A stretch of DNA of 64,000 nucleotides from a virus (taxonomy: Duplodnaviria > Heunggongvirae > Uroviricota > Caudoviricetes): positions 11,541 through 75,540 of IMG/VR virus record IMGVR_UViG_3300037423_000296; one strand, 5' to 3'. The first letter of the stretch is position 1, and the number at the start of each line of letters is the position of its first letter. Position numbers and translations under genes: made by a program. Below the pieces are notes generated by a model that saw only the letters and a program-made list of their open reading frames with translations, was not told the origin of the DNA and did not search any database. Positions 17,874 to 58,352 of the stretch are shown piece after piece.

Positions 17874-19306
17874 GCATGAAGGGCTAGATGACCCCCGTTA
17901 AGAACCCATCTAGCCCTAGTGCTCTTCCGCACGACGGTTTGAGCAGTTAACCAATCAGGCACCTGACAAATGCTATTGGTTCTCTGTGCTTCCGGTTGTC
18001 AGCCTCACAGAGTGGGCTTATGCCTCCGTTATCTCAACCACCATTAGCACGGAAGCTACACTAATGGTGTGTAAAAGTGAAGAGAGCCAGCCGACGCATT
18101 GCATCACAGCAAAGCATTCAGTCTAAATGCCTTTCATCGTTGACTAGACGATTAAGCTCTCCCCAACTTGCGCTCCCAGCGGGAGTTGAACCCGCGCTAA
18201 TACATTGACAATGTATCGTGCTGCCGTAACACTTTGAGAGCAATCGCCGGGTTTTGTTAAGTGGCTCCCTGCTAATACCCGGCTGATTAGCAGAAATCTT
18301 GAGCCGATGAGTGAATGCGCCTACCCATTCCACAGGGCTTTAGTACGCATTCGCTAGTGGAATTCCCTAACTCGCCTTGAGCGTCGGGCTAGCCTCACCA
18401 CGTGTTTTTGTCGTTGCCATGACTAGTATTGGCTTTCCCGTCTCGCCAGACGTTCCACGCAATGAGTAACCTTTGACGTTATCGCCGGTTGCGGTCCTTG
18501 AATGCTACCCGGTAAACCGGACATCTTCACCTAACCTCACTGCCGCTCTATGCCTAAGGATGCTATTTATACTCGCATAGACGAGTGTTGAGGCGCATTA
18601 GCTGTCGTATGCTATGCGAATTGATAGGTCAGTCCGGGGCTCGTTCTACAGGTTCCAGCCTTCGCCACTTCAACCCGCTTCCACCCTAACCATTCCATTC
18701 TGGCTCTCCGCACAAGGGACTAGAACCCAAGCTCTCCTCAACGTGTCACCCCATCCGGTTAATTCCGGTCCTGCCAACCCCAGTTAAAGGCTGACTATGC
18801 TTTCCTGCTTAACGGCAGGCCTATACACTAATGGGAAGCTTATGGGGTGGACGCTAAGACCAGTGTTCTTCATTCCGGGCGTACCGGACTTCCACTTACG
18901 TCTCTTATCTAACACAAGACCCCGCAGAATTTCGAATCGGTGCCAGTTCACCCTGTGATTCTCCATTCTGACCCCGGCTTTTTCTAGCAAGCGTGACCAA
19001 GCCACCGGGGATTTGCTTTTGCTGGTGTGGGTGGCGTTTATACACTCTCCCCTAATCCGGGCGTACCCAGAAGCCACATGCCCATCTTGTCTAGTGTTAG
19101 ACCAGCAATTCGCTATTCAGTTGTCAAGGTGTTGCCTAACTTCCTTGGTTTGTATATCTTAATCTTGCCTTGATTCTCGGAGCTTGTCAAGTAGCTGTGG
19201 GAAGTTTTTCATCATCTCGGCCCACTGCTCAGACTCAGCCTTGAGACACTTGGCACACCGCTCCTCGTGCCAACCAGTAGTCTCACTACCCGGCTTGCAG
19301 TCGCAG

Positions 19307-23109: not shown

Positions 23110-23372
23110 CCCTTATTCAGAGACTCAAGCCAGTCTCTTACAGCAGACTCCAGCATGTCTTCGGCGTAATCGATTTCGTCGCCTGCATGAGGATTCTCCG
23201 GACGCTCGTCGGCAGACTGCCAGGCATTCTTGAGTCGCGTGGCCCAGATTACCACAATGGACAAATCGCTTGGAGGATTGCCGGTAGAAATTCCGTAATC
23301 CTCTGCCATTCCCCTAATGAATCCCCACTCCTCTTCCTGAGTCGCAAGGCGGGTTTCGTAGAAATCACTCAT
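23106..23372 (-). CDS. hypothetical protein
   Basis: ORF track. Confidence 0.5.
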   Translation of the reverse strand: MSDFYETRLATQEEEWGFIRGMAEDYGISTGNPPSDLSIVVIWATRLKNAWQSADERPENPHAGDEIDYAEDMLESAVRDWLESLNKG

Positions 23373-24007
23373 AGTGTCTTAATCCAATCTCTGATGACCG
23401 AATGGTGAACCGGCGTGTAATCGTTCACATCCACACCGACATTGAACATATTTCCTTCAATCCGGCGCTTCTCGTGAATGTGTCCGTGAATGAGAGGCAA
23501 GTTAGAGTCAGTCGGCCTCTTGTCAACGTGCCGGTCATTCTCCTGAGAATCCCCCGAGTAAGGGAAGTGACTCAGGGTAATGTAGGACTCCAGATGCGGA
23601 ATCCACGTCTGAACAATCTCAGGCCAAATGACATTGAAGACCTTACGGTATTCAGGGTCGAAGCGATTTCGAGACTTCTCCTTTTCACCAGAGAAAACCC
23701 TATCATGGTTACCCGGCACCAATACCTTGCAGCCATTCAGCAGGCCGACCAAAGGTAGACTATCAGCAATCTTGCCCAGTGCAACATCCCCCAAGTGAAT
23801 AGCCAAATCCTCCGAACGTACAACGGTATTCCAGTTGTCAATGAGAGTTTGGTCGTGAAGGTCGATGTCCGGCTCATTGTGAGTTAAGAAAGGCCGGTTA
23901 CTCAGATTGATGATATTCCGGTGACTGAAGTGGGTATCACTGGTGAACCACACATTGTCGAATTTCATGAAAAATGCGGCAATTGCGCCAGTGTTGAAAG
24001 TAAGCAT
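23369..24007 (-). CDS. calcineurin-like metallophosphoesterase
   Basis: SDTHF.., LGDV, GNHD motifs. Confidence 0.8.
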   Translation of the reverse strand: MLTFNTGAIAAFFMKFDNVWFTSDTHFSHRNIINLSNRPFLTHNEPDIDLHDQTLIDNWNTVVRSEDLAIHLGDVALGKIADSLPLVGLLNGCKVLVPGNHDRVFSGEKEKSRNRFDPEYRKVFNVIWPEIVQTWIPHLESYITLSHFPYSGDSQENDRHVDKRPTDSNLPLIHGHIHEKRRIEGNMFNVGVDVNDYTPVHHSVIRDWIKTL

Positions 24008-24013
24008 GTGAAG

Positions 24014-24042
24014 AGCCTATCTGACTAGCTAGAGTTTGTCAA
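24014..24042 (-). promoter_or_regulatory. promoter TTGACA-N17-TAGGCT
   Basis: consensus match. Confidence 0.55.
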
Positions 24043-24050
24043 TGGAGGGG

Positions 24051-24248
24051 TCACCGGTCTTGTGCATTCTTCTTCTCCATATCAATGATGAATTGGGCAG
24101 CCTCGTCTTTGACGGACTGCGGTGATTGAAGCAATAGCTCAGCAAGCCGGTTCTTTCCCGTGCCATCCGGCAGGAAATCTAGCTGCTGAAACAGAAAGGC
24201 GAATGTCCGAGCCGCCCACTCGTTGGTCTCCATAGGAAAGTCTCCCAA
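24051..24248 (-). CDS. hypothetical protein
   Basis: ORF track. Confidence 0.45.
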   Translation of the reverse strand: MGDFPMETNEWAARTFAFLFQQLDFLPDGTGKNRLAELLLQSPQSVKDEAAQFIIDMEKKNAQDR

Positions 24249-24322
24249 AATAGTAGTGATTGTGTAACGCCATTCACAGTCTATCGTAGGAGACTTGCCA
24301 TGTCAACGAAGGAAAACCTTCT

Positions 24323-24565
24323 TCACCAGAACTTTGCAATGAAGTGGATTGCCACGTAGATAATCCCGGCTGTCAGAGCAAGGCTAAGCAGTGCCCCGAT
24401 AAGCCAGACAATCACAAAGCCAATGCCAACCTTGCGTTCAATGTCACGCAATGTAACTCCTCCCTTAATCCTCGTCATCTGGAGTGCCGAATTCAAACAC
24501 AATGAAATCCGGCAGAAATATTGAGAGTACAACCACTGCAATTCCGACCATGACCAAAGCTGCAC
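24323..24565 (-). CDS. small membrane protein
   Basis: ORF track; hydrophobic. Confidence 0.4.
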   Translation of the reverse strand: MQLWSWSELQWLYSQYFCRISLCLNSALQMTRIKGGVTLRDIERKVGIGFVIVWLIGALLSLALTAGIIYVAIHFIAKFW

Positions 24566-24656
24566 CGACGAAAAGCCCGAGCACCATCAGAGCCATTCCA
24601 ACAGAGTACCCGATTTCATCCAGCGAAATGAAGTGATGCCCAATGTTGATTTTCAT
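24465..24656 (-). CDS. small membrane protein
   Basis: ORF track; overlaps neighbour. Confidence 0.3.
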   Translation of the reverse strand: MKINIGHHFISLDEIGYSVGMALMVLGLFVGAALVMVGIAVVVLSIFLPDFIVFEFGTPDDED

Positions 24657-25400
24657 TTACCGGCCCTTCTGCTTGAGCGTACTATCCAAGGAAACCTTAC
24701 CGGAGAATGCAGCCCTCATCAAGCCGGGGAACTGATTCAAGGTAATGATTGACGCAACGGTGTTGTGTCGGAACATCTTGGAAAGCTCGTCGGCAACCCG
24801 CTCATCTGCGACAGACTCAACCCCGACATGGACAGCAGGCTCACGGAGAGCGTCAGCCAAATTTATGTCCAGAGCGAATCCCTTGGTGACCGTGAATCGA
24901 ATTGCCCTGAGAGCCCTCAGCGGGTCTTCTGACAGCCTTTCTAGTGGGTCACCTACAGCCCTAACAATCCGGCGCTTGATGTCCCTAAAGCCGTCGTGAG
25001 GGTCAATGAAGTTACCAGTGCTATCCTTGGCAATGGCATTCATGGTGAAATCCCGCCGCTTTAGGTCGTCGCCAAGCTTACCCGGCTCAACCTTGTCAGG
25101 CCTGCGTCCGTCCGTGTAATCCGACTCCTTGCGAGCCAGCACAAAGTCGGCAGCCATGCCAGGGTAAGTCGGGTGATTCTTCGGGAATTGTCCACGAGCC
25201 GTCAAGAATTCGGGGGTCGTCACGAAAATGGTGAATCCCTGCTTCTTCAGCATGTCCACCATCGTTTGAAACGGATTGAATTCCAGCCCGCCAATTGGGT
25301 TCCAATCGTACTGAGCGAGAACGCAAGTGAAATCAATGTCCTTCGATGGAATACCCAGGATTTCATCCCGAACACAACCGCCTACTTCAAAGAGTTGCAT
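24657..25400 (-). CDS. cca: tRNA nucleotidyltransferase (CCA-adding enzyme / polyA polymerase head domain)
   Basis: GGCVRDEILG..DIDF and RRDFTMNAIA motifs. Confidence 0.85.
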   Translation of the reverse strand: MQLFEVGGCVRDEILGIPSKDIDFTCVLAQYDWNPIGGLEFNPFQTMVDMLKKQGFTIFVTTPEFLTARGQFPKNHPTYPGMAADFVLARKESDYTDGRRPDKVEPGKLGDDLKRRDFTMNAIAKDSTGNFIDPHDGFRDIKRRIVRAVGDPLERLSEDPLRALRAIRFTVTKGFALDINLADALREPAVHVGVESVADERVADELSKMFRHNTVASIITLNQFPGLMRAAFSGKVSLDSTLKQKGR

Positions 25401-25886: not shown

Positions 25887-26073
25887 ATTCCTGACAGCCG
25901 TACTTAGGTTGTTCCTCGTGGTCTGGGCAGATTTCTACGACGGACAAATCGTCGGCATTCGCCGGGTCTTCCGAGATGTATTCACCAAGACGTTCCTGTG
26001 CAGAAAAGTCACTGTAGAAACCTGTCTCTACAAACCCGCCGTCGCTCGCAGTCCAAATGCCGTATTCCTGCAT
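25870..26073 (-). CDS. hypothetical protein
   Basis: ORF track. Confidence 0.45.
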   Translation of the reverse strand: MQEYGIWTASDGGFVETGFYSDFSAQERLGEYISEDPANADDLSVVEICPDHEEQPKYGCQECESDA

Positions 26074-26237
26074 TATTCGCCGTCCTCACCATCAACGTGA
26101 CCTACGACTCGCCAACCCTCGGTCAGCAATTCCTTAACCTCGTCGGTGTCAGGGTCTTCGAACAATGGGCAATGCGACACGTAGGCATAGCGGGTAGGCT
26201 CGTTCTTCTCTCGCCGTAGCATCAATCTGGTTGCCAT
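26073..26237 (-). CDS. small hypothetical protein (54 aa)
   Basis: manual ORF MATRLMLRRE..; AGGAGA RBS. Confidence 0.4.
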   Translation of the reverse strand: MATRLMLRREKNEPTRYAYVSHCPLFEDPDTDEVKELLTEGWRVVGHVDGEDGE

Positions 26238-26268
26238 TGGTATCTCCTTAGCTTGAGTTGATACTCAG

Positions 26269-26297
26269 AGTCTAGTCTGAGAATGTCGGCCTGTCAA
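26269..26297 (-). promoter_or_regulatory. promoter TTGACA-N17-TAGACT
   Basis: consensus match. Confidence 0.55.
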
Positions 26298-26587
26298 GCA
26301 TCGCCGTCCATCAGCTTCCGGAAGAAACGCTTGATACCCTCGCGTCGAGCAATCCGGCGAGAATGCCTGAGTTCCTGTTCGGTCAATGGGTAATCGGCAT
26401 GCCGACTCCGGTAATTCCGGTCGTCTTGGCAGAATTGGCATGGACAAATACTCTGAAAATGCTTCATTAGATTGACCCCGGCTTTCTGCGGGAGGTACTT
26501 AGCGACTTGGCGAGAGGAAACCTGATAGCCGTACCGGGGTCTTCCGATGTTTACTGTTACCAGCTTACCAGAAAACCCCGATTTCCG

Positions 26588-27035: not shown

Positions 27036-27383
27036 TTACCGACCTTCCTCGCAGAGGTACTGGGTCGCTCCGTCGTAAATCCGGCGACCGGCTCCAGGGT
27101 ACTGAAGCTCAGCCATGTTTGTCAACGTAGTCTCGGAGAAGCTGTGTAGCTCCCCGCAAATCTTGTAGCCGACAAACAGCAGGTTGCCGTTCGGCTCACT
27201 GTTTAGCTCAGGATTGTTCATCCTGACATAGTTGAGGTAGGCGTCGTTGAGCTTGGCGGATTCATCCGATGTGCGACCGTGAGCGGTCATCTCAGGCTCG
27301 CTCGCCTCGTGGATGGCCAGCCCTAGGCCGACGCCTGCAAGAGCCAGCACAACGGCTCCTACGGCCAGCCACCAGCGCTTCAT
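27036..27383 (-). CDS. secreted/membrane-anchored protein (signal peptide)
   Basis: MKRWWLAVGAVVLALAGVGLGLA. Confidence 0.5.
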   Translation of the reverse strand: MKRWWLAVGAVVLALAGVGLGLAIHEASEPEMTAHGRTSDESAKLNDAYLNYVRMNNPELNSEPNGNLLFVGYKICGELHSFSETTLTNMAELQYPGAGRRIYDGATQYLCEEGR

Positions 27384-27694
27384 GACGCGCTCAACTCCCA
27401 GCCAGGGAAGTAAGCAATCAGACCGTCGCCCAGCGGGTCAATCTGAAGGTGAGCGCCGAGCAGACCAGCGTCGTCAGGATTGACGTAATCGGAGCGAGTG
27501 TGGTTCCAGTCCATCTCCCGATACATGGAATCACCGCCCAGCTTCACAAGAAAGCTACCGAGTTCTCCGAAGGTGTCGAATTGAATTCCGAAACCCGGCT
27601 CCAAGTGGGGCTTGATGTGGCTTTTGTAGGACAGGTAGAAATCTCCCGCGTGAACCGCAGCGTTCCGAATGTCCTTGCCAGTGATGGTCAGCAT
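27380..27694 (-). CDS. paralog family A member 1 (C-terminal YFPGWEL)
   Basis: shared FGI(Q/E)FD and (V/A)YFPGW(T/E)L motifs with two neighbours. Confidence 0.5.
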   Translation of the reverse strand: MLTITGKDIRNAAVHAGDFYLSYKSHIKPHLEPGFGIQFDTFGELGSFLVKLGGDSMYREMDWNHTRSDYVNPDDAGLLGAHLQIDPLGDGLIAYFPGWELSAS

Positions 27695-27739
27695 GTTATC
27701 TCCTTCTACTAATTGTTACGGTGTGTTACTGCTACTGAA

Positions 27740-27768
27740 AGTCTAACCTAGGGTCAGACTAATGTCCA
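27740..27768 (-). promoter_or_regulatory. promoter TGGACA-N17-TAGACT
   Basis: consensus match. Confidence 0.5.
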
Positions 27769-28080
27769 GCCAGGGAAGTATACAACCGTGTGAGAAGTAA
27801 GGGCACTCATCCTTCCGGCACGGGCAAGCTCAAAAGCCCTCTCGCTGGTCAGAGACTCGTCGTCATTGTCATCAGCGTATTGGTCCATAACCCCGCCCTC
27901 AATGCCAAGAGACGTGAAGAATGCAAATACGTGCGACATGGCGTCGAACTCGATTCCGAAGCCCTCTGGCAAATCCCACCCGCCACGGTAAGCCGGGACA
28001 ATTGCGTCCTCGCCTTCGAATACATTCGCGGCTTCCAGCGCGGCCAGAACTTCCTTGCGACTGATGACCTTCTCCATCAT
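27754..28080 (-). CDS. paralog family A member 2 (C-terminal VYFPGWTLV)
   Basis: see member 1. Confidence 0.5.
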   Translation of the reverse strand: MMEKVISRKEVLAALEAANVFEGEDAIVPAYRGGWDLPEGFGIEFDAMSHVFAFFTSLGIEGGVMDQYADDNDDESLTSERAFELARAGRMSALTSHTVVYFPGWTLV

Positions 28081-28109
28081 GACTCCTTAGCTTGAGATTG
28101 TGGCTTCAC

Positions 28110-28361
28110 CTACACCATAATCAGGACAACTGTCCAGTACTTCTCCGTGCCACCCCATGCACCTCTCGGCACTGATTCGGCAATTGCGTTCATGCCCTGT
28201 TTCTGCAAACGTCGAGCTTCCCGGCGAGCTTCAATTTGTGACATCGGTCGGCCCAATGGACACTCTGGCAAATGAGCCTGCGTAACCCTCGCAAAACAAA
28301 CCGGGCATTCTGGGAAATAAACATTTGCCTCATCGTTCGGAATCATCGTCGCTCTCCGCAT
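28110..28361 (-). CDS. hypothetical Cys-rich protein
   Basis: ORF track; CPVC..CPLG. Confidence 0.4.
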   Translation of the reverse strand: MRRATMIPNDEANVYFPECPVCFARVTQAHLPECPLGRPMSQIEARREARRLQKQGMNAIAESVPRGAWGGTEKYWTVVLIMV

Positions 28362-28683
28362 CCAATAGCCTGATGTAAGCGCATCCGACAGAATGAGTCA
28401 TCGTCTTGGCACCCTTACCCACCTTCGGAGTGAGTTTGAATTTCGCGCCACAGGCTGGACAATCCTCGCCTCGTGCAATTGCTTCAAACCACTCGTCCAA
28501 TGGATTGGAGACATTGCCAGTAATGTCCAGCGGGTCACCATCGGCCTTGAGAGCCCAGCGGCGAAGCTGATGGGGAATGCCGGTCATCCCTTCGACAACC
28601 GGCTTTCCAGCCTCATCGTAGCCCAGCAATTTGACTCTCGGCGTATCGAGCACTTGTCGCTGTTGCTTAGTGAGCTTGTTCAT
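28330..28683 (-). CDS. hypothetical protein with CPACG / C..C motifs
   Basis: ORF track. Confidence 0.5.
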   Translation of the reverse strand: MNKLTKQQRQVLDTPRVKLLGYDEAGKPVVEGMTGIPHQLRRWALKADGDPLDITGNVSNPLDEWFEAIARGEDCPACGAKFKLTPKVGKGAKTMTHSVGCAYIRLLDAESDDDSER

Positions 28684-28994
28684 CAGTAGAGAGTCCAGCC
28701 CTTGAAGTACACCGTCAACTTTTCGGGGGTGTATTCCAGAGAAGCATCGTCAGCGAGCCCCTGAGCCTTCTCATCCTCGTAGTTGTACGTCTCACCGGTA
28801 CCGAGAACATATCCAGCCTCTCGACCCATCTGAGTAAAGAACCGAGCCACCTGAGCGAAGTTCTCAAAGTCAATGCAGAGGCAATCTCTCACGCCATCCT
28901 TGTTGACAATCTCGTAGGGGTTCAGGTTCGAAGAGCCCCCGGCCTTGTTCAAAGCGTAAACCACGCTGTCTCGGTCAATCTTGTTCAACGGCAT
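28683..28994 (-). CDS. paralog family A member 3 (C-terminal VYFKGWTLY)
   Basis: trimmed from ORF 28683..29111 to MPLNKIDRD; GGGAGG RBS. Confidence 0.5.
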   Translation of the reverse strand: MPLNKIDRDSVVYALNKAGGSSNLNPYEIVNKDGVRDCLCIDFENFAQVARFFTQMGREAGYVLGTGETYNYEDEKAQGLADDASLEYTPEKLTVYFKGWTLY

Positions 28995-29029: not shown

Positions 29030-29070
29030 AGCCTAACAAGAAAAGAGCCGGGGCACAATGGCCCCGGCTC
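29030..29070 (-). terminator. intrinsic terminator (gagccggggc/gccccggctc stem followed by U-run on minus strand)
   Basis: read in sequence downstream of 29077..30075. Confidence 0.65.
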
Positions 29071-29076
29071 AATTTC

Positions 29077-30075
29077 TTAGACAGCCGCCAGGAAGCGCTG
29101 CCAGACTGCATTCCGGCTGTCGTTGGTCACGTTGTCGAAACCAGCGCCAGCGGCAAACAGGTTCTCGTCCTTACCGGCGCGAACCTCACGGAACCACTGC
29201 TGGTGCTCAGTGACAGCGTTGAGACCCTTCCAGACCGTGTTGTCAAGGTTGCCCATGGACTCCGTACCGTTGCTCCAAATGGTCTCCAGAGCGTCAACCT
29301 TGAATTCCCACTTGCTCATCCGGCCACGGGTGTTGTCCTCAGGCTTCGGGTAAATGTCCTCAACAATCTTGAGGAAAGCGTCCTTGGTCATCTCGGCCTC
29401 AATCATGGCCTTGGCCTCAGCCTCAAAGGCGTCGTCGTAAGCCTGAGCGAATCCAAGGGCGGCCTGAGCGTCGGCCAGCTTGGTCTCCATACCCTGAGTG
29501 TGACGAATGCGGAATTCGTCTCCACGCTCGCCCAGAGCCACGTTGAGGGTGTTCTGACAAACAACCCTCACGTTCGTCTTCTTGGCAATCAGGGTGCCGG
29601 AACCATCGTGCGAGGAGGTCAGCATCAGATAGCGCTTGATGACATCCTTGGAACCCTTCGGGTCCAGCACGATATCGTTGGTCTCAACCAGCGTGGCAAA
29701 TACCTGAGCACCACCCTTGATAGAACCGGCAGTCTCCCAGCGGCGACGGCCATTCGTGAGCTTGTCTCCGAAGTCGAAAATCGACTCGTTGGAGAAGATG
29801 TTGTAACGCTTGCCAACCGTGCCCAGAACATCCTTCTGGCCCTTCTTGAAGGGGTTGTCACGGATGACGAGCTTGGCTTCCTTGGCAAAGTTGTAGTGCG
29901 GAAGCTCTTCCTTCAGGTCAAGGAAGCGAATGTTCCAACCGTGAAGGTGAGCGAGCTTGAGCATTTCCTCAGTGGAAACCGGCTTGTCGAAGACGGTACC
30001 GAGTCGGTGCCAGGCGGGCTCACGCAGGGAAGCGAAAGCAGCCAGGTCGCCGTAGGTCTCGATTCCTGCGGGCAT
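29077..30075 (-). CDS. hypothetical protein, 332 aa, likely highly expressed (own promoter, AGGAGGA RBS, terminator); function unknown
   Basis: ORF track; regulatory context. Confidence 0.65.
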   Translation of the reverse strand: MPAGIETYGDLAAFASLREPAWHRLGTVFDKPVSTEEMLKLAHLHGWNIRFLDLKEELPHYNFAKEAKLVIRDNPFKKGQKDVLGTVGKRYNIFSNESIFDFGDKLTNGRRRWETAGSIKGGAQVFATLVETNDIVLDPKGSKDVIKRYLMLTSSHDGSGTLIAKKTNVRVVCQNTLNVALGERGDEFRIRHTQGMETKLADAQAALGFAQAYDDAFEAEAKAMIEAEMTKDAFLKIVEDIYPKPEDNTRGRMSKWEFKVDALETIWSNGTESMGNLDNTVWKGLNAVTEHQQWFREVRAGKDENLFAAGAGFDNVTNDSRNAVWQRFLAAV

Positions 30076-30112: not shown

Positions 30113-30141
30113 ACTCTACCGGAGTCTACCTAGACTGTCAA
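30113..30141 (-). promoter_or_regulatory. promoter TTGACA-N17-TAGAGT
   Basis: perfect -35, consensus -10. Confidence 0.6.
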
Positions 30142-30169
30142 GCACCCAGCCTAGGTAGACTTTGTGGCC

Positions 30170-30997: not shown

Positions 30998-31579
30998 TCA
31001 GTTGTCGTCGCTGACGGAAACTCCACCCTCAGGCCATCCCTTTCGGACTCCCCAAGAGCCGTTCACCTTAGCGTGCCACTTCTTCCCAGTCTTGTCAATG
31101 AAGTGCGTGAAACCCTCGCTGTCAGGAAACTCGCTCACAACCCTGAGAGTCATGCCCTGCGGGTTGCAGACGAAGTTACCGAAGGCGAACACCTTCTCGT
31201 ACCACGAAAGCGGCGGGTGAGTCGGCTTACCATCCTCGCCAAGCTTGACAGCGTTGGACGGCTTACCCTCAACGATGACAGCCTCACGACTATTGTTCGG
31301 GGTTGAAGCCTTGCGAATCCGCTTCGGGCCACTTTCAGCCCGCTCCTGCGCCGCAAGAACGTGCGCCGGAAGCTTAAAGACGACACCCTCAGACTCAGCC
31401 TTGGCAATAGCCTCCTTGGCAGCAGGACTCATTCGGCCCCGGCCCATCTTGGCAAGTCCGAGACTCGCGGCATACTCACGCGCAGTCATCTCCGAACGCT
31501 TGTCCATAGTTGCAGTAAGCACTTTCTCTCCTTCAGTAGGTTGTGTCTCAACCCTAACAGACTCAAGTTTGGGAGTCAA
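30998..31579 (-). CDS. protein with Lsr2-type C-terminal-domain-like DNA-binding motif (REYAASLGLAKMGRGRMSPAAKEAIAKA) near N-terminus
   Basis: spacing-identical match to REWARKNGYDINARGRIPFSVMDAFTKA of the Lsr2 at 62317. Confidence 0.55.
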   Translation of the reverse strand: MTPKLESVRVETQPTEGEKVLTATMDKRSEMTAREYAASLGLAKMGRGRMSPAAKEAIAKAESEGVVFKLPAHVLAAQERAESGPKRIRKASTPNNSREAVIVEGKPSNAVKLGEDGKPTHPPLSWYEKVFAFGNFVCNPQGMTLRVVSEFPDSEGFTHFIDKTGKKWHAKVNGSWGVRKGWPEGGVSVSDDN

Positions 31580-34798: not shown

Positions 34799-35686
34799 TT
34801 ACTTACTTGGTGCTACGATGCCAACACCCGAAGAGCCAGAGCAATTCCAGCCAGCGGGAAGAGGACCATTCTTGTTCTGGTCCCAGTTATTCGTGACATC
34901 AAGGCAAAAGCGCTGGTTAGCCTGAGGAGTCAGAATGCCAGACTTCTCACGAATCTCAGCAGTCTTGGCCTCAGTCAAAGCCTTTTGACGCTCAAGCTCA
35001 GCACGAGCCAAATCCTGTTGAGCAATGACAACCTTCTCAATGCTGGCCTGCGTCTTCTCGTCCAAGCCTACATTGGTAACCCGGACATTATCAACTTCAA
35101 GACCATACTTCGCAAAGTCCAAAGAAAGCTGAGTCTTGACGGCTTCAGAAATCTCATTTCCCTTTGCCTGAGCATCAGTCGGAATGTACTTGCCAGCAGC
35201 ATCACGAACTGCTGCCTCGGCACTGTTCTGCACAAGTTCCTTCTGAACCCGCTTAAAGGACTTGTAACGCTCCCACAGAGCCTTGGCTTCCTTGTCAGAA
35301 ATCTTCCAAGAGACGGTAGCAGCAATCGAACCCTGACCGCCGCCCTTGTAAGTGACATTGACGCGGTTCACGTGCACAACGTTGTCATCATTGTCGTCAC
35401 CACCATCAAGGTAGAGAGTCTGAATCTGAGTGCTGAACTCTTCGACCGAAGAAGTCGGGTTGGTCCAGTGGAATCCGTTGTCCAGCGTCTTCTGGTACTT
35501 CCCGAAGCCGGTCTGAATTCCGACAGACCGGGCTGAAACAGTGGTAGCCGAACAGATACCAAAGACCAGCAACCAGAGCATAATAACCGCTCCAGCCGCA
35601 ATCTTACCACCGGTCGTGACGAACGCAAAGCCAATTGATACGACAAATGCAATCGCCAGGATGATGGTCAGAATGATGAACAGCAA
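34799..35686 (-). CDS. SPFH/band-7 (stomatin/prohibitin/HflK-like) membrane protein
   Basis: N-terminal TM segments then band-7 core and coiled-coil (AQQDLARAELERQKALTEAK). Confidence 0.8.
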   Translation of the reverse strand: MLFIILTIILAIAFVVSIGFAFVTTGGKIAAGAVIMLWLLVFGICSATTVSARSVGIQTGFGKYQKTLDNGFHWTNPTSSVEEFSTQIQTLYLDGGDDNDDNVVHVNRVNVTYKGGGQGSIAATVSWKISDKEAKALWERYKSFKRVQKELVQNSAEAAVRDAAGKYIPTDAQAKGNEISEAVKTQLSLDFAKYGLEVDNVRVTNVGLDEKTQASIEKVVIAQQDLARAELERQKALTEAKTAEIREKSGILTPQANQRFCLDVTNNWDQNKNGPLPAGWNCSGSSGVGIVAPSK

Positions 35687-44851: not shown

Positions 44852-45680
44852 CTACATTGGCATAATCGGACTTGAGCAGAGGAGCGCTGACCTCTTCATC
44901 GGCAACGTCAATTACGACGTAGCGACAAACGCGAATCTTCGCCTCGTTGTGCTCAGTCGGCACAGAGACAACATCGCGAGGGTTGATAGCAACCTTCACA
45001 CGACCATTTCCGTAACCACGGGCATAGTCGAACGTTCCGGCATGCAGACCAGTCGAGCATCCCTCGGCAGGGTTGAATTCAACCTCGCTACGCGGCATCT
45101 CAACCGTGTCACCAATGCGCTGGGGAATCTGCTGGTTCTCGAACAACTCGCCATTGACGATTGCCGTACCAGAGTGCCACGACTTGTAGACCTTGCCGTT
45201 CTCATCCTCCTCAACGTAGAGACCCTTGTAGGCAACAAGGTCACCGTCAGAGGTAATCGTGATTGACGGACGAGCCTTGACCCAGCCGTAAAGCTGCTCA
45301 CGGCTGTGAGGCTCAGGGTTGAGAGACACCTTGTCTAGGAAGTTGACCAAAGGCATGAAGTCTTCGTCAGCCTCAAGCATTCGCAGAATGTGGTCAGTGA
45401 TGGCGTTGTCAACGTGGTCACCGTCGAAGTATACCTTGCCATTGGCAACGGAGATTCGGTCGGTCAGACGCTCAAAACGCTTTGCCACCTCTTCAGCCGG
45501 GTCAAAGAGTCGGACGACAGACTCATCACCGGAAGTAATCCCGGCAACAATCTGGTCCCAATTCTTGTGGTCCTGGTTTGCAACGTACATCTCACCGTCA
45601 ATAAAAGCGGTGACGCTGGACTCATTTCCAACGCTTACGAGATTATACTTGATTGTTCTTCTCCTTCTGGTAAATTGCAT
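44730..45680 (-). CDS. rIIB: rIIB-like protein (by size and position immediately downstream of rIIA-like)
   Basis: 316 aa, overlaps rIIA-like end; acidic C-terminus; no motif-level confirmation. Confidence 0.5.
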   Translation of the reverse strand: MQFTRRRRTIKYNLVSVGNESSVTAFIDGEMYVANQDHKNWDQIVAGITSGDESVVRLFDPAEEVAKRFERLTDRISVANGKVYFDGDHVDNAITDHILRMLEADEDFMPLVNFLDKVSLNPEPHSREQLYGWVKARPSITITSDGDLVAYKGLYVEEDENGKVYKSWHSGTAIVNGELFENQQIPQRIGDTVEMPRSEVEFNPAEGCSTGLHAGTFDYARGYGNGRVKVAINPRDVVSVPTEHNEAKIRVCRYVVIDVADEEVSAPLLKSDYANVVGELDENDFDTLYCENCGDDDHEYYECPEYDEDDDEDDDY

Positions 45681-47559
45681 TCATGTATAGGTAGACATGC
45701 TCTTTATTGCTACCACAGTTACCCCTGGCAAGCGGGTACTTATTGAATGGGTCGGTAATATCTTCCGACTTAATCTCTCCGTGAGCGTACTCGATTGCCC
45801 TGGCAAATTCACACGCCGCGTACCAATCCTTCATGGTGTCGGTGAGCGGTTCCTGCTTCGCATTGCATGCATTGATGAATGCGACCATCTCAGGGTCGTC
45901 AATGCGAGTGGGGTCAAGCTTCTGAGCGTTGACTCTGGAGTAGTAATCTACGTCAGTCATTCTACGCCTATCGGTCTTGGTAAGTCCAGCCTTCGCGAAC
46001 ATTACCTTGTCCTTAATCCACTGCTCCAAATCCTCAGAGTCAGGGTTGGCTTTCTTGAACCTATCAAGCTCATTCTTGTACAGAATGACGATTTCGTAAT
46101 CCTTGAGAATAGTGGTGAGGTTCTTCCACTTAATCTTCCGGCGACCCGGCACAATGTACATGACATTCTTGGTGTCATCCAAATCAGCCTTGGTTGTCGT
46201 GTATCCGTGCGCAGTCAGGGTGTTGTACTCAACAACCTTCTTGTCAGACTTGGCACGAACTAGCTTGATAGCCTTGATAGTCTCAAAGGGCACCGTCCGA
46301 ATTTCGGCCAGACGCTTCGTGTCAGGGTGCTTCTCCATCAAGAATACCTTGTACGGACGCTCGCCTGCCGGAAGATTCTCAATGTAGTGACGAATCTTCT
46401 GTCGGTAGTTCGTAGGAAGCTTCTCACCAGTAAACCCAGTGATGGTCAGATATTGAGAGAAATTCTTCCAGTCGATGTGCCTCGGGAAGGTTACTGCATG
46501 ACGCTCATGGCTGTGAGCGAAAGACATCGCTTCCGGCGCTTCACCGTAATTGAATTCCCACGTCTGCTTCAGTTCCTCACCCTTGTAGGTGTAATTGTGA
46601 GAAATCATGAATGAACGCTTGTCATGAGTCTTGAGAGCTTCAAGGTAGGTGGGCTGGGCATCAATCTCGGCCTGGATTTGGTTGGCAATTCCTGCCTTAG
46701 CCTCTGCCGACAGCTTGGAGATTGTCTCCTTGGTCTTGTCGGTGTACATCAATTCCTCGCGGTTCGGAGGAAATGCCACATCACCAATCTCGACAAAGGC
46801 TACCAAGTGATAATCGCCGTAGTGTTCGGCAAGACCGTCAGCCTTGTAGGGAACATTTCCCATAACTACGTACGATGTACCCTGACCGGGAAGAGCGACA
46901 ATGTTGTCAGTGACCCACAAAGCATCCTTGTGGTCTCCGATGAATTCCGGCTGCTTGTCGTCAACAAGAACAGTACCCGGAGTCCAGTACTTGAAGAAAT
47001 GCTCCACCCTTGCAGTGAAGTCACTAGTGTACTTGACGGGAATGATGATTTCCACACCAGACGGCTCATCGGTAATCGACGTGTCAACAATCTCCATTAC
47101 GCCAGAGCCGTACTCATCCTTGCTCACCATTACAAGAATCTTCACACCTTGGTGAATGGATACAATCTGGAATTGAGCCGTGTAAGTCAAGCCAGACTTA
47201 CTTCCAAGACCCAGCATTCCAACCTGAGAATCAGTATCTCTCTTGGTTGAATTCCAGTATTGAGAGTAGACGTTCTCAATGAAATCTACAGACATTCCAT
47301 TGCCAAAATCCCGAATTTTGAAGAACGGGCTAAGCGCGCTGGGACTGTGAATCTCGATTGGAACATTTGCCTTGCCAGCGTCAATATGAGCATCACGAGC
47401 ATTCGTGCTGTATTCTCGAATGATTGCCTTGATTGGGTCTGCGTACATATCTGTCAAGGTGCTCATGGCGAATTGTAGACTGTGCATATCCATCGTCATC
47501 TCAATACGCTTACCGCCGAGATTGCCGCTGGTTTGAATGTCTAGTGGTGCTGGACGCAT
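45643..47559 (-). CDS. rIIA: rIIA-like protein with N-terminal GHKL (HATPase_c) ATPase domain
   Basis: N box REYSTNARDA, G1 box IRDFGNGMS, G2 box GMLGLGSKSG. Confidence 0.75.
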   Translation of the reverse strand: MRPAPLDIQTSGNLGGKRIEMTMDMHSLQFAMSTLTDMYADPIKAIIREYSTNARDAHIDAGKANVPIEIHSPSALSPFFKIRDFGNGMSVDFIENVYSQYWNSTKRDTDSQVGMLGLGSKSGLTYTAQFQIVSIHQGVKILVMVSKDEYGSGVMEIVDTSITDEPSGVEIIIPVKYTSDFTARVEHFFKYWTPGTVLVDDKQPEFIGDHKDALWVTDNIVALPGQGTSYVVMGNVPYKADGLAEHYGDYHLVAFVEIGDVAFPPNREELMYTDKTKETISKLSAEAKAGIANQIQAEIDAQPTYLEALKTHDKRSFMISHNYTYKGEELKQTWEFNYGEAPEAMSFAHSHERHAVTFPRHIDWKNFSQYLTITGFTGEKLPTNYRQKIRHYIENLPAGERPYKVFLMEKHPDTKRLAEIRTVPFETIKAIKLVRAKSDKKVVEYNTLTAHGYTTTKADLDDTKNVMYIVPGRRKIKWKNLTTILKDYEIVILYKNELDRFKKANPDSEDLEQWIKDKVMFAKAGLTKTDRRRMTDVDYYSRVNAQKLDPTRIDDPEMVAFINACNAKQEPLTDTMKDWYAACEFARAIEYAHGEIKSEDITDPFNKYPLARGNCGSNKEHVYLYMNAIYQKEKNNQV

Positions 47560-50704: not shown

Positions 50705-51451
50705 TTAGAGTAGAATCAGTTTGTGTGACTTCGCCTTGTGTTGCGCTACGTAGTCAAAGTCAGGCTTGTAAAGGTCTTTGTAGTTCAAAATAATGAACAA
50801 AGCCCATTCATTCTTGAACAGCGACGTAATGGATTTCTTCATGGCCTTAGCATATGCCATGCGCGGGCTAACCCGGTAATCTGCTGGGATTACCCAGCGC
50901 TCAAGTGCTGTCGCATAGACTTCCTCGCGGATAGTCTTGAGCTTGTCCTCGTGGCTCATTGCCCAGAACTTATCGTTATCGACAAGGACATCTGAGCCCT
51001 CTTTCAGAATCCTAATATACATGGCTTCGTCGCCGTATGCAACACTGTCATGCAGAGAATCGTGGTCATACTTTCGGATAACCGCGTCTCCGAAGAAGTC
51101 TTTCTTGGTCTTGTTAAGGTTGACTCTCTTCTGGCCGTGAACTTCCATCCACACGGGATGGAGAATTTCCCACATAGCCCGGTCGAATTGTACGCCGTTA
51201 TGCTGGAAGAAGAGGATGTCATTCATGTGCTTCTCCCACGAGCCATTCTGCAATGCCCACGGAGAGTGACTGACCTTGATGGTGTAAAGCTCTCGCGGCC
51301 AGGCTACTCGATTGGTGCCCCACTCTTCCGGAAAAGACTCATGCCAGAAGTTGTCACCTGGCAAATCCGGGTCAGGAGAGAAATGGTCCTCATCCTTTGG
51401 CTCACGAAAGTCTGGATACCAACCCTTCATTGCTTTAGAACCGATTAGCAT
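50705..51451 (-). CDS. hypothetical protein (248 aa); weak nucleotidyltransferase-like GS...DED signature at N-terminus
   Basis: ORF track; IGSKAMKGWYPDFREPKDEDHF. Confidence 0.5.
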   Translation of the reverse strand: MLIGSKAMKGWYPDFREPKDEDHFSPDPDLPGDNFWHESFPEEWGTNRVAWPRELYTIKVSHSPWALQNGSWEKHMNDILFFQHNGVQFDRAMWEILHPVWMEVHGQKRVNLNKTKKDFFGDAVIRKYDHDSLHDSVAYGDEAMYIRILKEGSDVLVDNDKFWAMSHEDKLKTIREEVYATALERWVIPADYRVSPRMAYAKAMKKSITSLFKNEWALFIILNYKDLYKPDFDYVAQHKAKSHKLILL

Positions 51452-54712: not shown

Positions 54713-54790
54713 TGTGGAGTCGCGGGGAATTGAACCCCGGTCCTTTGCATTCAATCGTACATCCGAATTACAGCCATCCCTATTCTTTAG
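54713..54790 (-). ncRNA. tRNA-like fragment (perfect T-arm CGGGG-UUCAAUU-CCCCG; no acceptor partner found)
   Basis: manual reading. Confidence 0.3.
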
Positions 54791-55108
54791 ACCTTTACGA
54801 TTGAAGGTGGTCCCAGGATAAGTCCGTCTACCTCTGGCCTTTTAAACTGATGCCGAGCAGTAGGGGGGGTGAACAGTTTGTAGGCGAAGCCACTGTTCGA
54901 TTTCCACCACTGACCTTTCTGTTCCTAGGCAGTCAGCGCCCGATGCTCAATCCTCAGACTGAAGCAAGGTCGTACTCAGCGCAAAGCGCCTCGTACTCTG
55001 CATCAATGTTGTCAGTTGCAGTTATTGTTTGTCAAGTGTTTAACGACTCTCTCAACGAAGTCGGGCTGCGTTCATACTCTCTAGTTCAAAGTCGATACCT
55101 TTCGACCC

Positions 55109-55423
55109 CTAAGGCAAATATACTTTTGCCAAGTTATTGTCTACAAGTAGTTTATTGAGACTTTCAGTACCGGCGAAAACCTCTGCCAGCCAGCGACCGT
55201 ACTTCTCTTTCTTGTAGGTATTGATTGTAACTGTTGGATTCTTTGCAAAGAAGGACTTTACGAAGGCTGTTGCCTCTGCCCATCCTACCTGACCACGCTC
55301 TGGCGTGTCAATTCCATACAATCTGAAAACCGTATCAACTCTAATATCAAATCCCAGGTCTACTGTTAGTTCTACAGTATCACCATCTACCGCTCTAACA
55401 AAGTCTGCCTTGTATTGGTACAT
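55109..55423 (-). CDS. thermonuclease (staphylococcal nuclease-like, SNase domain)
   Basis: VRAVDGDTVEL..RLYGIDTPE..KYGRWLA motifs. Confidence 0.8.
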   Translation of the reverse strand: MYQYKADFVRAVDGDTVELTVDLGFDIRVDTVFRLYGIDTPERGQVGWAEATAFVKSFFAKNPTVTINTYKKEKYGRWLAEVFAGTESLNKLLVDNNLAKVYLP

Positions 55424-57056: not shown

Positions 57057-58277
57057 TCACTTGTCTAGAACATTGAACTTCGTGAAGTCCCAGCGCTTGA
57101 ATACTCCCTTGGTATCAACAGGCTCAACACCATAAGAAATCTGACCAACGTGAGGGTCTGATGCGGCAGTGCGCATAATACCTCTGTTTGCCATATCCTT
57201 GGCGAATGCCTTGACATCAATTGTGCCACTGGTAATTGCTTGTGGAGCACCATCTGCCGGTACGTATGCAACGTAGTCAGGAGCACCATAATATACATCC
57301 CACTGGCGTCCATCAACTGTCACATTCTTGGCCTTGAGGTCACCATATGGTGACTGCCCCTGATTGTGAGTCCAAATCATCAACTCGGTCTGGTAATTTC
57401 CATCACCAATACCATTGAGCCAAATGTCGAATGCCTCTTCGTAAACACATCCGGCGCAATCAGTTGGGCTTTGGTGAGCAAACTCTACCTTTAGCTGTGG
57501 GAATGAGGATAGCTTAGGGTCAAGCGTGTAATCCTCTGGACCTCCCCAGTCGTGGTAAATCTTCCTAATGGAAGGGTAAGCCTGAACTGCTCCATCGCCA
57601 TGGTCGGTAGCCTTGATTTCGACGTACCAATCGTCCTTGGAGTAGGCACAGAGATTGGAGCTATAGTCATTCTTTACTGCCCACTGTTCGGCAGAAATGT
57701 CATACCCGTCTCCAATTGCGTCTGAGCCTTCTCCAGTGAAGTGGGCAATTGTGTTTGTTGGGCTGCATGACTTGTCAGCAGGAATCGTTGGACTTGCGGT
57801 TGGTGTTACCGTTGTCGTAGGAGTTGGCGTATTTGTCTCCGTTGGTGACGGAGTTGAGCTAGTCACTGTCGGTGACGGACTTGGCTCGATTGGCGCTCCC
57901 ACATAAGTGTAAACAACGTAATACTTGATGACAATTCCAGACTTGAACTTGGTGCCATCATGCCACAAGAACTTCACTGTATAGCTTGTGTCTGTGGTCT
58001 TGGATGGGTCAACCGTTGCATTCTGCCCCGGTCCTCCAGGGGTTACAACGATTGATGTTGGCTTGACTCCCAAGCCATGATTCACCGTACATGCGCTAGA
58101 AACATTGACTGTACACTGTTCGCTACGGCCAAGTGTCTGCTGAGTCGGTGGTGTTGTTGAATCATTAGCCTTTGCATTGAATGCGCTCATTAGCGCAATA
58201 ATGAAAGCTAGAGCCAGGGCGGCTACGAAAACTACTCGTACATTTGGCTTGCTAATGGCGGGCTTAGCGTGCTTCAT
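57057..58277 (-). CDS. secreted glycoside hydrolase, GH12-like catalytic domain, with N-terminal domain and Pro/Thr-rich linker
   Basis: signal peptide; PT linker; ELMIWTHNQG motif characteristic of GH12; AAGGAGA RBS before MKHAKP. Confidence 0.65.
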   Translation of the reverse strand: MKHAKPAISKPNVRVVFVAALALAFIIALMSAFNAKANDSTTPPTQQTLGRSEQCTVNVSSACTVNHGLGVKPTSIVVTPGGPGQNATVDPSKTTDTSYTVKFLWHDGTKFKSGIVIKYYVVYTYVGAPIEPSPSPTVTSSTPSPTETNTPTPTTTVTPTASPTIPADKSCSPTNTIAHFTGEGSDAIGDGYDISAEQWAVKNDYSSNLCAYSKDDWYVEIKATDHGDGAVQAYPSIRKIYHDWGGPEDYTLDPKLSSFPQLKVEFAHQSPTDCAGCVYEEAFDIWLNGIGDGNYQTELMIWTHNQGQSPYGDLKAKNVTVDGRQWDVYYGAPDYVAYVPADGAPQAITSGTIDVKAFAKDMANRGIMRTAASDPHVGQISYGVEPVDTKGVFKRWDFTKFNVLDK

Positions 58278-58352
58278 GTATTTCTCCTTATTTGTGATTG
58301 ACCTCACGGGTCTCTCACAAGCATAACATTAAGGTTACGATGAAGCAAGATG

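What the first reader, a model, noticed from the sequence alone, without database searches (positions are those of the whole stretch)
27380..28994. Three-member paralog family with conserved C-terminal (V/A)YF(P/K)GW(T/E)L just downstream of the highly expressed gene
ORFs 27380..27694, 27754..28080 and 28683..28994 are each about 104-108 aa. They share FGI(Q/E)FD(A/T) mid-region and (V/A)YFPGWxL C-terminal motifs. Two have their own promoters. A diversifying small-protein family of this kind could be anti-defence or host-takeover effectors.
Basis: seen in the sequence. Interest (0 to 1): 0.55.

Follow-up and report, generated by a model that had tools for sequence, protein, structure and literature searches.

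The report
Acidic small-protein trio in phage
Three neighbouring small genes in a Streptomyces-type phage are real, ancient copies of one uncharacterised, strongly acidic phage protein family, and they sit in a fast-changing gene slot; this makes them reasonable but unproven candidates for proteins that disarm the host.

Summary
ORFs A (27380-27694), B (27754-28080) and C (28683-28994), all on the minus strand, are significantly similar to each other (BLASTP 7e-8, 2e-7, 3e-5). All three end in YF(P/K)GW(T/E)L.

The window proteins have lost the canonical YSGRGMYG..C and TDSMG motifs. A, B and C belong to three old subclades. They fill a variable slot between a DUF932 gene and a DUF732-like membrane-protein gene, and related phages carry one, two or no members there. 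In a near-identical strain, A is replaced by an allele with 44% identity.

The function is unknown. My best guess, about 0.35, is early-expressed inhibitors or decoys acting on host factors. Interest is moderate.

The parts
28683..28994 (-). Paralogue C (103 aa, pI 4.5). It is the first gene after the DUF932 terminator and ends in VYFKGWTLY. Its stop overlaps the start of the next gene (ATGA).
   Evidence: groups with P0050 in the NJ tree; best window match to the second family copy of L009, 37% identity
27754..28080 (-). Paralogue B (108 aa, pI 4.25). It ends in VYFPGWTLV. It is the protein that was modelled: b1-a1-b2-b3-a2-a3-b4-b5-b6, pLDDT 93.5.
   Evidence: subclade with P0011, P0013, P0063, P0020 and P0040; dN/dS 0.34 against strain L094
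27380..27694 (-). Paralogue A (104 aa, pI 4.9). It ends in AYFPGWELSAS. Its stop overlaps the start codon of the downstream membrane-protein gene (ATGA).
   Evidence: orthologues P0004-P0008 at 45-69% identity
27416..27699 (-). Swapped cassette: codons 1-92 of A plus 5 nt upstream. This stretch cannot be aligned at the DNA level with strain variant L094, although the genes around the B-A-membrane-gene tract are 99.5-100% identical in nucleotides. The L094 allele is 44% identical in amino acids.
27740..27768 (-). Streptomyces-type promoter-like site (TGGACA-17-TAGACT) ahead of A. It overlaps the 3' end of B.
29045..29070 (-). Intrinsic terminator (10-bp stem with 9 GC pairs, then a T-run) between the DUF932 gene and C.
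29077..30075 (-). DUF932 gene (332 aa), the conserved upstream flank of the slot. It is 63% identical to Streptomyces phage Moab gp220.
30113..30141 (-). Consensus promoter TTGACA-17-TAGAGT of the DUF932 gene. A 15-nt inverted repeat (30123-30137 / 30147-30161) straddles its -35 element.
28330..28683 (-). 117-aa gene with a weak zinc-ribbon signal (below Pfam cut-off), lying between C and B. No homologue was found in the sister loci L008 and L009.
28110..28361 (-). Cysteine-containing gene (CPVC...CP motif; 83 aa by the longest ORF, 78 aa in the metagenome gene calls), lying between C and B.
27036..27383 (-). Conserved downstream flank: a 115-aa protein with an N-terminal transmembrane anchor and a two-cysteine, DUF732-like domain. 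Its start overlaps the stop of the last family member by 4 nt or more in the window, L008, L009, L097 and the contig carrying P0005, which suggests translational coupling.

Best explanation
Shown:
- A, B and C are real genes and ancient paralogues of each other.
- They form a divergent branch of a family of about 100-aa, strongly acidic, single-domain alpha/beta proteins found only in phage or viral contigs. The canonical branch is PHROG 14658, of unknown function.
- They occupy a variable slot between a conserved DUF932 gene and a conserved DUF732-like membrane-protein gene.
- The slot lies in an arm of a Stanwilliamsviridae-like (Streptomyces-phage-like) genome that carries many host-type promoters.

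Inferred:
- They are made early in infection and act stoichiometrically, as binders (decoys or inhibitors) of host or competitor macromolecules. This means counter-defence or host takeover.
- Each paralogue has its own specificity.
- The C-terminal YFPGW is read as a structural beta5-turn-beta6 element that closes the sheet.
- Specificity would then lie in the helices and the acidic a2-a3 loop, which are the parts that vary between alleles.
- Alleles are exchanged between co-circulating phages by recombination, using the conserved gene ends as junctions.
For: Paralogy is shown.

Family:
- The exhaustive profile search returned 58 representatives, almost all 80-125 aa.
- 35 of 60 aligned members hit phrog_14658.
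- hhalign of window-type against canonical members gives probability 99.4%, E 5.6e-21.
- The model is a confident single-domain fold (pLDDT 93.5, pTM 0.85).
- 95% of members have pI below 5, with a median net charge of -10.
- The family was found only in phage or viral contigs, with no plasmid hit.

Expression context: 15 Streptomyces-type promoters, all on the coding strand, against 1.6 expected from shuffles. One of them lies directly before A.

Variable slot: one, two, three or zero members sit between conserved flanks in L008, L009, the window and Moab/Faust.

Allele replacement: A is replaced in an otherwise near-identical strain.

Coding status: the genes are intact and under purifying selection (B dN/dS 0.34). 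Substitutions between B alleles fall in a1, a2, the acidic loop, a3 and the b4-b5 loop, and never in YFPGW.
Against: - There is no homology or fold match to any known anti-defence protein, DNA mimic or sponge.
- The canonical branch has invariant polar residues (Y-S-G-R..M..C, D) that look more like a ligand or catalytic site than a charge mimic. The window proteins lack them, so the function may differ between branches.
- No partner protein has been identified.
- Acidity and early position are common among phage small proteins and are not specific.
- Timing of expression is inferred from promoter consensus only.
Confidence: 0.38

Rival explanations
1. Module partner. The last family member works together with the adjacent DUF732-like membrane-anchored protein, and perhaps with DUF932. 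The pair could form an early superinfection-exclusion or envelope-directed two-gene module. In that case the allele swapping would reflect competition between related phages, not host defence.
For: The stop of the last member overlaps the start of the membrane-protein gene in the window, L008, L009, L097 and the P0005 contig. B, A and the membrane gene together form the divergent tract between near-identical strains. DUF932 lies within 5 kb in the window lineage, L031, L048/L049 and Gordonia phage Mariokart.
Against: The membrane-protein pairing is confined to this lineage: 3 of the 4 downstream ORFs with a transmembrane-like segment, out of 78 checked, belong to it. No neighbour is conserved across the family. 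Only A is coupled; B and C are not. Most family loci have no DUF932 nearby.
Confidence: 0.2
2. Small-molecule binder or mini-enzyme. The canonical family uses its invariant YSGRGMYG..C hairpin, the TDSMG aspartate and the YFPGW aromatics to bind or modify a nucleotide-like ligand, for example as a signal sponge. The window paralogues would then be degenerate or neofunctionalised derivatives.
For: In 14 canonical members Y, S, G, R, M, C, D, Y, F, P and G are invariant. This degree of polar-residue conservation is unusual for a pure protein mimic. The size and the phage-only distribution resemble known sponge proteins (own knowledge of Tad1, Tad2 and Acb2).
Against: All three window proteins lack the hairpin motif, and B and C also lack the aspartate. 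There is no sequence or fold similarity to solved sponges or enzymes. No oligomer or pocket was analysed.
Confidence: 0.15
3. Virion or assembly protein with a tail-terminator-like alpha/beta sandwich fold.
Confidence: 0.03
4. Chance similarity or decaying duplicates with no function.
For: None beyond the low pairwise identity (23-33%).
Against: Pairwise E-values are significant. hhalign probability is 99.4%. Orthologues of each paralogue exist in other contigs. All three have ribosome-binding sites. dN/dS is 0.34.
Confidence: 0.01

Closest known systems
PHROG 14658 (and PHROG 36992), uncharacterised phage protein families. Examples are Gordonia phage Mariokart gp73, Gordonia phage Lilbeanie A0A7T1NXQ0, Saccharomonospora phage PIS 136 PIS_068 and Rhizobium phage RHph_Y68 EVB55_111.
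   Same: Homologous over the whole length (hhalign 99.4%). The size, the acidity, the predicted fold and the C-terminal (I/V)(V/A)YFPGWxL are the same.
   Different: The window proteins are not recognised by the PHROG models at E below 0.1. They lack the invariant YSGRGMYGxxC hairpin and mostly lack the TDSMG motif. Here they occur in tandem as three subfamilies, whereas 89 of 91 loci carry a single copy.
Acidic early phage inhibitors and DNA mimics (T7 Ocr, ArdA, T4 Arn, PBS2 Ugi); named from my own knowledge, as a functional analogy only.
   Same: About 100 aa, pI about 4, found only in phages, in an early genome region, and variable between related phages.
Phage signal sponges (Tad1, Tad2, Acb2); named from my own knowledge, as a functional analogy only.
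   Same: Small, phage-encoded, widely scattered across unrelated phages, with a conserved putative pocket motif in the canonical branch.
   Different: No homology or fold match. The window paralogues have lost the conserved motif.

Membership tests
YFPGW small acidic phage protein family (PHROG 14658-like) | Whole-length profile homology to canonical members | tested here: met
   hhalign of A2 (window type) against A4 (canonical): probability 99.4%, E 5.6e-21, 98 columns. The profile built from window-type sequences retrieves canonical members at 1e-5 to 1e-9 in 1.84 billion proteins.
YFPGW small acidic phage protein family (PHROG 14658-like) | Direct match to the PHROG 14658 model | tested here: not met
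   A, B and C give no PHROG hit at E up to 0.1, while 35 of 60 aligned relatives do. The window proteins are a divergent branch.
YFPGW small acidic phage protein family (PHROG 14658-like) | C-terminal (I/V)(V/A)YFPGWxL within a few residues of the end | tested here: met
   A ends in AYFPGWELSAS, B in VYFPGWTLV and C in VYFKGWTLY.
YFPGW small acidic phage protein family (PHROG 14658-like) | YSGRGMYGxxC(F/W)G hairpin and the TDSMG motif | tested here: not met
   These are invariant in 14 canonical members. In the hairpin region A has YKSHIKPHLEPGFG, B has YRGGWDLPEGFG and C has VNKDGVRDCLC. Only A keeps the aspartate, as IDPLG.
YFPGW small acidic phage protein family (PHROG 14658-like) | Single domain of about 80-125 aa with acidic pI | tested here: met
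   Lengths are 103-108 aa and pI values are 4.25-4.9. The family median pI is 4.3.
DNA-mimic anti-restriction proteins (Ocr, ArdA, Arn type) | Sequence or fold relationship to a known mimic | tested here: not met
DNA-mimic anti-restriction proteins (Ocr, ArdA, Arn type) | Surface carboxylates spaced like DNA phosphates; inhibition of restriction or BREX | not testable with these tools
   Only bulk acidity was measured. Model coordinates could not be inspected, and no assay was possible.
Known anti-phage defence components (PADLOC) | Match to any PADLOC model | tested here: not met
   No hit for A, B, C, DUF932 or three canonical members.
Tail terminator (gpU-like) proteins | Significant fold match and location in the structural module | tested here: not met

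The most novel reading that the evidence does not exclude
The YFPGW family may be a previously unrecognised class of phage counter-defence or inter-phage competition protein with a fold that has no solved relative. In this lineage it would have expanded into a three-specificity array. Its terminal member, apparently translationally coupled to a DUF732-like membrane protein, would be exchanged as a cassette between otherwise clonal phages, making it a hypervariable 'specificity' locus.
Probability: 0.2. Interest if true: 0.7.

Novelty: new variant of a known kind. Interest (0 to 1): 0.42.

Why it matters
If these proteins are inhibitors of host defence, or of rival phages, the family would add a structurally new class to the anti-defence repertoire. 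It is scattered across viral contigs of very different size (up to 485 kb) and across cultured phages of Rhizobium, Gordonia and Saccharomonospora.

The locus also offers a natural experiment. Three old paralogues lie side by side, and an allele swap has occurred in a near-clonal background. Both can be used to map specificity determinants.

As it stands, this is a well-delimited, testable candidate and not a discovery. The function is unknown, and such small acidic early proteins are common in large phages.

Tried and rejected
- Pfam, NCBIfam, PADLOC and PHROGs on A, B and C directly gave no hits.
- Megablast of the 5-kb region and tblastn of B against 50,697 phage records gave no match.
- tblastn of a canonical member against plasmids gave no match.
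- The PDB profile search gave only E 0.005 to a trypanosomatid protein of unknown function.
- Foldseek against AFDB50 was unavailable.
- BFVD returned only uncharacterised phage proteins.
- The genes downstream of DUF932 in Moab (gp222) and Faust (gp217) were checked as possible hidden homologues. Their sequences show neither family motif, and hmmsearch found no member in either 9-kb region.
- The long profile hits P0043 and P0052 are TPR and ankyrin repeat proteins, so they are spurious. No informative domain fusions were found.
- Literature searches for the motifs and for DUF932, UPF0380 or YfjQ gave nothing functional.
- The search for a family-wide conserved neighbour found none.

Full report
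**1. Observation**

On the minus strand lie A (27380-27694, 104 aa), B (27754-28080, 108 aa) and C (28683-28994, 103 aa). Each has a Shine-Dalgarno sequence: GAAGGAG for A, AAGGAG for B and GGGGAGG for C.

Pairwise BLASTP is significant for all three pairs: A/B 7e-8, B/C 2e-7, A/C 3e-5. The three-way alignment has 13 invariant columns, including Y-F-x-G-W-x-L at the extreme C-terminus. The motif-coding DNA is still visible as a 20-nt direct repeat in all three genes. The FGI(Q/E)FD motif is shared only by A and B. No fourth copy exists in the window.

**2. Genome context**

The window carries 32 tRNA genes and a tmRNA.

The gene upstream of C is a DUF932 protein (Pfam E 6e-47). Its best cultured relatives are Streptomyces phages of the Stanwilliamsviridae (Moab 63%, Faust 53%). 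There is no nucleotide-level match to any of 50,697 phage records. The window therefore comes from an uncultured relative of these roughly 130-kb actinophages.

Fifteen sites match the Streptomyces housekeeping promoter consensus, which I give from my own knowledge as TTGACA-N16-18-TAGRNT. All fifteen lie on the coding strand, against 1.6 expected from shuffles. Eleven of them lie between 14 and 32 kb, which suggests host-polymerase, early transcription.
- One site precedes the DUF932 gene (30141-30113). That gene ends in a strong terminator (29070-29045).
- One site (TGGACA-17-TAGACT, 27768-27740) precedes A.
- B has no promoter of its own, and C has no consensus promoter.

**3. The family**

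A, B and C hit nothing in Pfam, PHROGs, NCBIfam or PADLOC.

A word-indexed search found only the three proteins themselves and three orthologues of A. An exhaustive HMM search of 1.84 billion representatives, using a profile of those six sequences, found 58 hits at E up to 1e-3. Almost all are 80-125 aa. Two long hits are TPR and ankyrin artefacts.

The aligned family has this consensus: TIxR..A...YSGRGMYGxxCFGI..F...FFxxLG...A..LA..A.TDSMG..IVYFPGWxL.

Of 60 aligned members, 35 match PHROG 14658 and 8 match PHROG 36992. Both PHROGs have unknown function. A profile-profile comparison of the window type against canonical members gives 99.4% probability and E 5.6e-21.

Members occur in these sources:
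- Rhizobium phages, Saccharomonospora phage PIS 136 and Gordonia phage Mariokart;
- an uncultured 485-kb phage record;
- 80 IMG/VR viral contigs of 6 to 485 kb.

None was found in plasmids. Bacterial genomes could not be scanned.

The family is uniformly acidic: median pI 4.3, median net charge -10, and 95% of members below pI 5.

**4. Structure**

With the 60-sequence alignment, AlphaFold2 gives a confident single-domain model of B (pLDDT 93.5, pTM 0.85). The order of elements is b1-a1-b2-b3-a2(long)-a3-b4-b5-b6. YFPGW forms the b5-turn-b6 element. The canonical YSGRGMYG motif corresponds to the b2-b3 hairpin loop.

**5. What is special here**

(a) The window proteins are a degenerate branch. 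They lack the canonical invariant residues Y-S-G-R-M...C...D.

(b) Tandem multiplicity is rare. Of 91 loci with a member, 89 have one copy, L009 has two and the window has three.

(c) In an NJ tree, A, B and C fall in three separate subclades, each with orthologues in other contigs. They are therefore old paralogues, not a recent triplication.

(d) They fill a variable slot between conserved flanks. The shared order is Lsr2-like gene, 115-aa gene, DUF932, the slot, DUF732-like membrane protein, and further on the CCA-adding enzyme. The slot holds different genes in each phage:

| Phage or locus | Slot content |
|---|---|
| L008 | A-like only |
| L009 | B-like, then C-like |
| Window | C, two small Cys-rich genes, B, A |
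| Moab, Faust | unrelated genes |

(e) In this lineage the last member overlaps the start of the membrane-protein gene (ATGA). That protein has an N-terminal transmembrane anchor and two invariant cysteines. Five of 14 aligned sequences (the window protein and 13 homologues) match DUF732. This pairing is not family-wide.

(f) Strain variant L094 comes from a different metagenome sample, and the differences from the window cluster in one tract.
- The surrounding genes that were compared are 99.5-100% identical in nucleotides. These are C, both Cys-rich genes, the CCA-adding enzyme, the phosphoesterase and four small genes.
- B is 94.5% identical in nucleotides (dN/dS 0.34).
- The membrane gene is 93.3% identical (dN/dS 0.28).
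- A is replaced by an allele with 44% amino-acid identity that cannot be aligned at the DNA level. The replaced tract is 27416-27699, from 5 nt upstream of the start codon to the codons for AYFPGW.

This is cassette-like allele exchange at the A locus.

(g) DUF932 lies within 5 kb of a member in the window lineage, in L031, in L048/L049 and in Mariokart (gp76 and gp73). It is absent from most loci. No other neighbour recurs.

**6. Interpretation**

Several lines of evidence fit a stoichiometric early effector, meaning counter-defence or host takeover, with the paralogues differing in specificity:
- the proteins are acidic;
- the family was found only in phage or viral contigs;
- the genes lie in a region of host-type early promoters;
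- slot content varies between sister phages;
- an allele has been swapped in a near-clonal background;
- B is under purifying selection.

I rate this at about 0.35-0.4. It is an inference, because nothing links the family to a target.

The rivals are as follows:
- a two-gene module with the adjacent membrane protein, for example superinfection exclusion (about 0.2);
- ligand binding or catalysis through the canonical invariant residues, with the window copies neofunctionalised (about 0.15);
- a structural role (about 0.03);
- chance similarity or decay (about 0.01, refuted).

**7. Novelty and score**

The family is already catalogued as a PHROG of unknown function, so the trio is not an orphan invention. 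It is, however, a divergent, motif-less, tandemly expanded and allele-swapping variant.

Function and mechanism remain open. A specialist would find it a sensible screening candidate, not a surprise. Interest is 0.42.

Noticed in passing
window 40217-62166, plus 18170-18241: There are 32 tRNA genes and one tmRNA (54714-55109, tag ATDNIDAEYEALCAEYDLASV), all on the minus strand. This is typical of large Streptomyces phages of the Stanwilliamsviridae type.
   Followed up: partly
window 14400-57022, minus strand: Fifteen matches to the Streptomyces-type promoter T(T/G)GACN-N16-18-TAGRNT lie on the minus strand and none on the plus strand, against 1.6 expected from shuffles. Eleven of them lie between 14 and 32 kb. 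Many spacers contain CTAG or TAGAC-like words.
   Followed up: partly
window 30123-30137 / 30147-30161: A 15-nt inverted repeat (93% complementary, 9-nt gap) straddles the -35 element of the DUF932 promoter. It could be an operator for a phage or host regulator.
   Followed up: no
window 26000-26399: This is a second small cluster of differences (16 mismatches) between the window and the otherwise near-identical strain L094. It covers small ORFs and the promoter-like site at 26297-26269.
   Followed up: no
window 27036-27383: The 115-aa membrane-anchored protein downstream of A belongs to a conserved two-cysteine family, and 5 of 14 aligned sequences match DUF732. DUF732 is, from my own knowledge, an actinobacterial domain of unknown function. 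Its start overlaps the stop of the last YFPGW-family gene in every related contig examined.
   Followed up: partly
window 28110-28683: Two small Cys-rich genes (117 aa and about 80 aa; the 117-aa one has a weak zinc-ribbon signal) are inserted between C and B. No homologue was detected in the sister loci L008 and L009. One long family member (P0092, 197 aa) carries a Cys-rich C-terminal extension.
   Followed up: no
window 23369-25400 and 30998-31579: The neighbourhood includes a CCA-adding/poly(A) polymerase-family enzyme (24657-25400), a metallophosphoesterase (23369-24007) and a homologue of the Lsr2-like DNA-bridging protein of phage Moab (30998-31579).
   Followed up: partly
window about 6000: GC skew and AT skew change sign near 6 kb (positive before, negative after), consistent with a switch of coding strand.
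   Followed up: no
window 34799-35686, 45643-47559, 50705-51451, 57057-58307: Other annotated genes in the window are an SPFH/Band 7 protein, a 638-aa protein with a weak GHKL ATPase domain match, a DUF7275/DUF7277 protein, and a 416-aa protein with a glycoside hydrolase family 12-like C-terminal domain.
   Followed up: no
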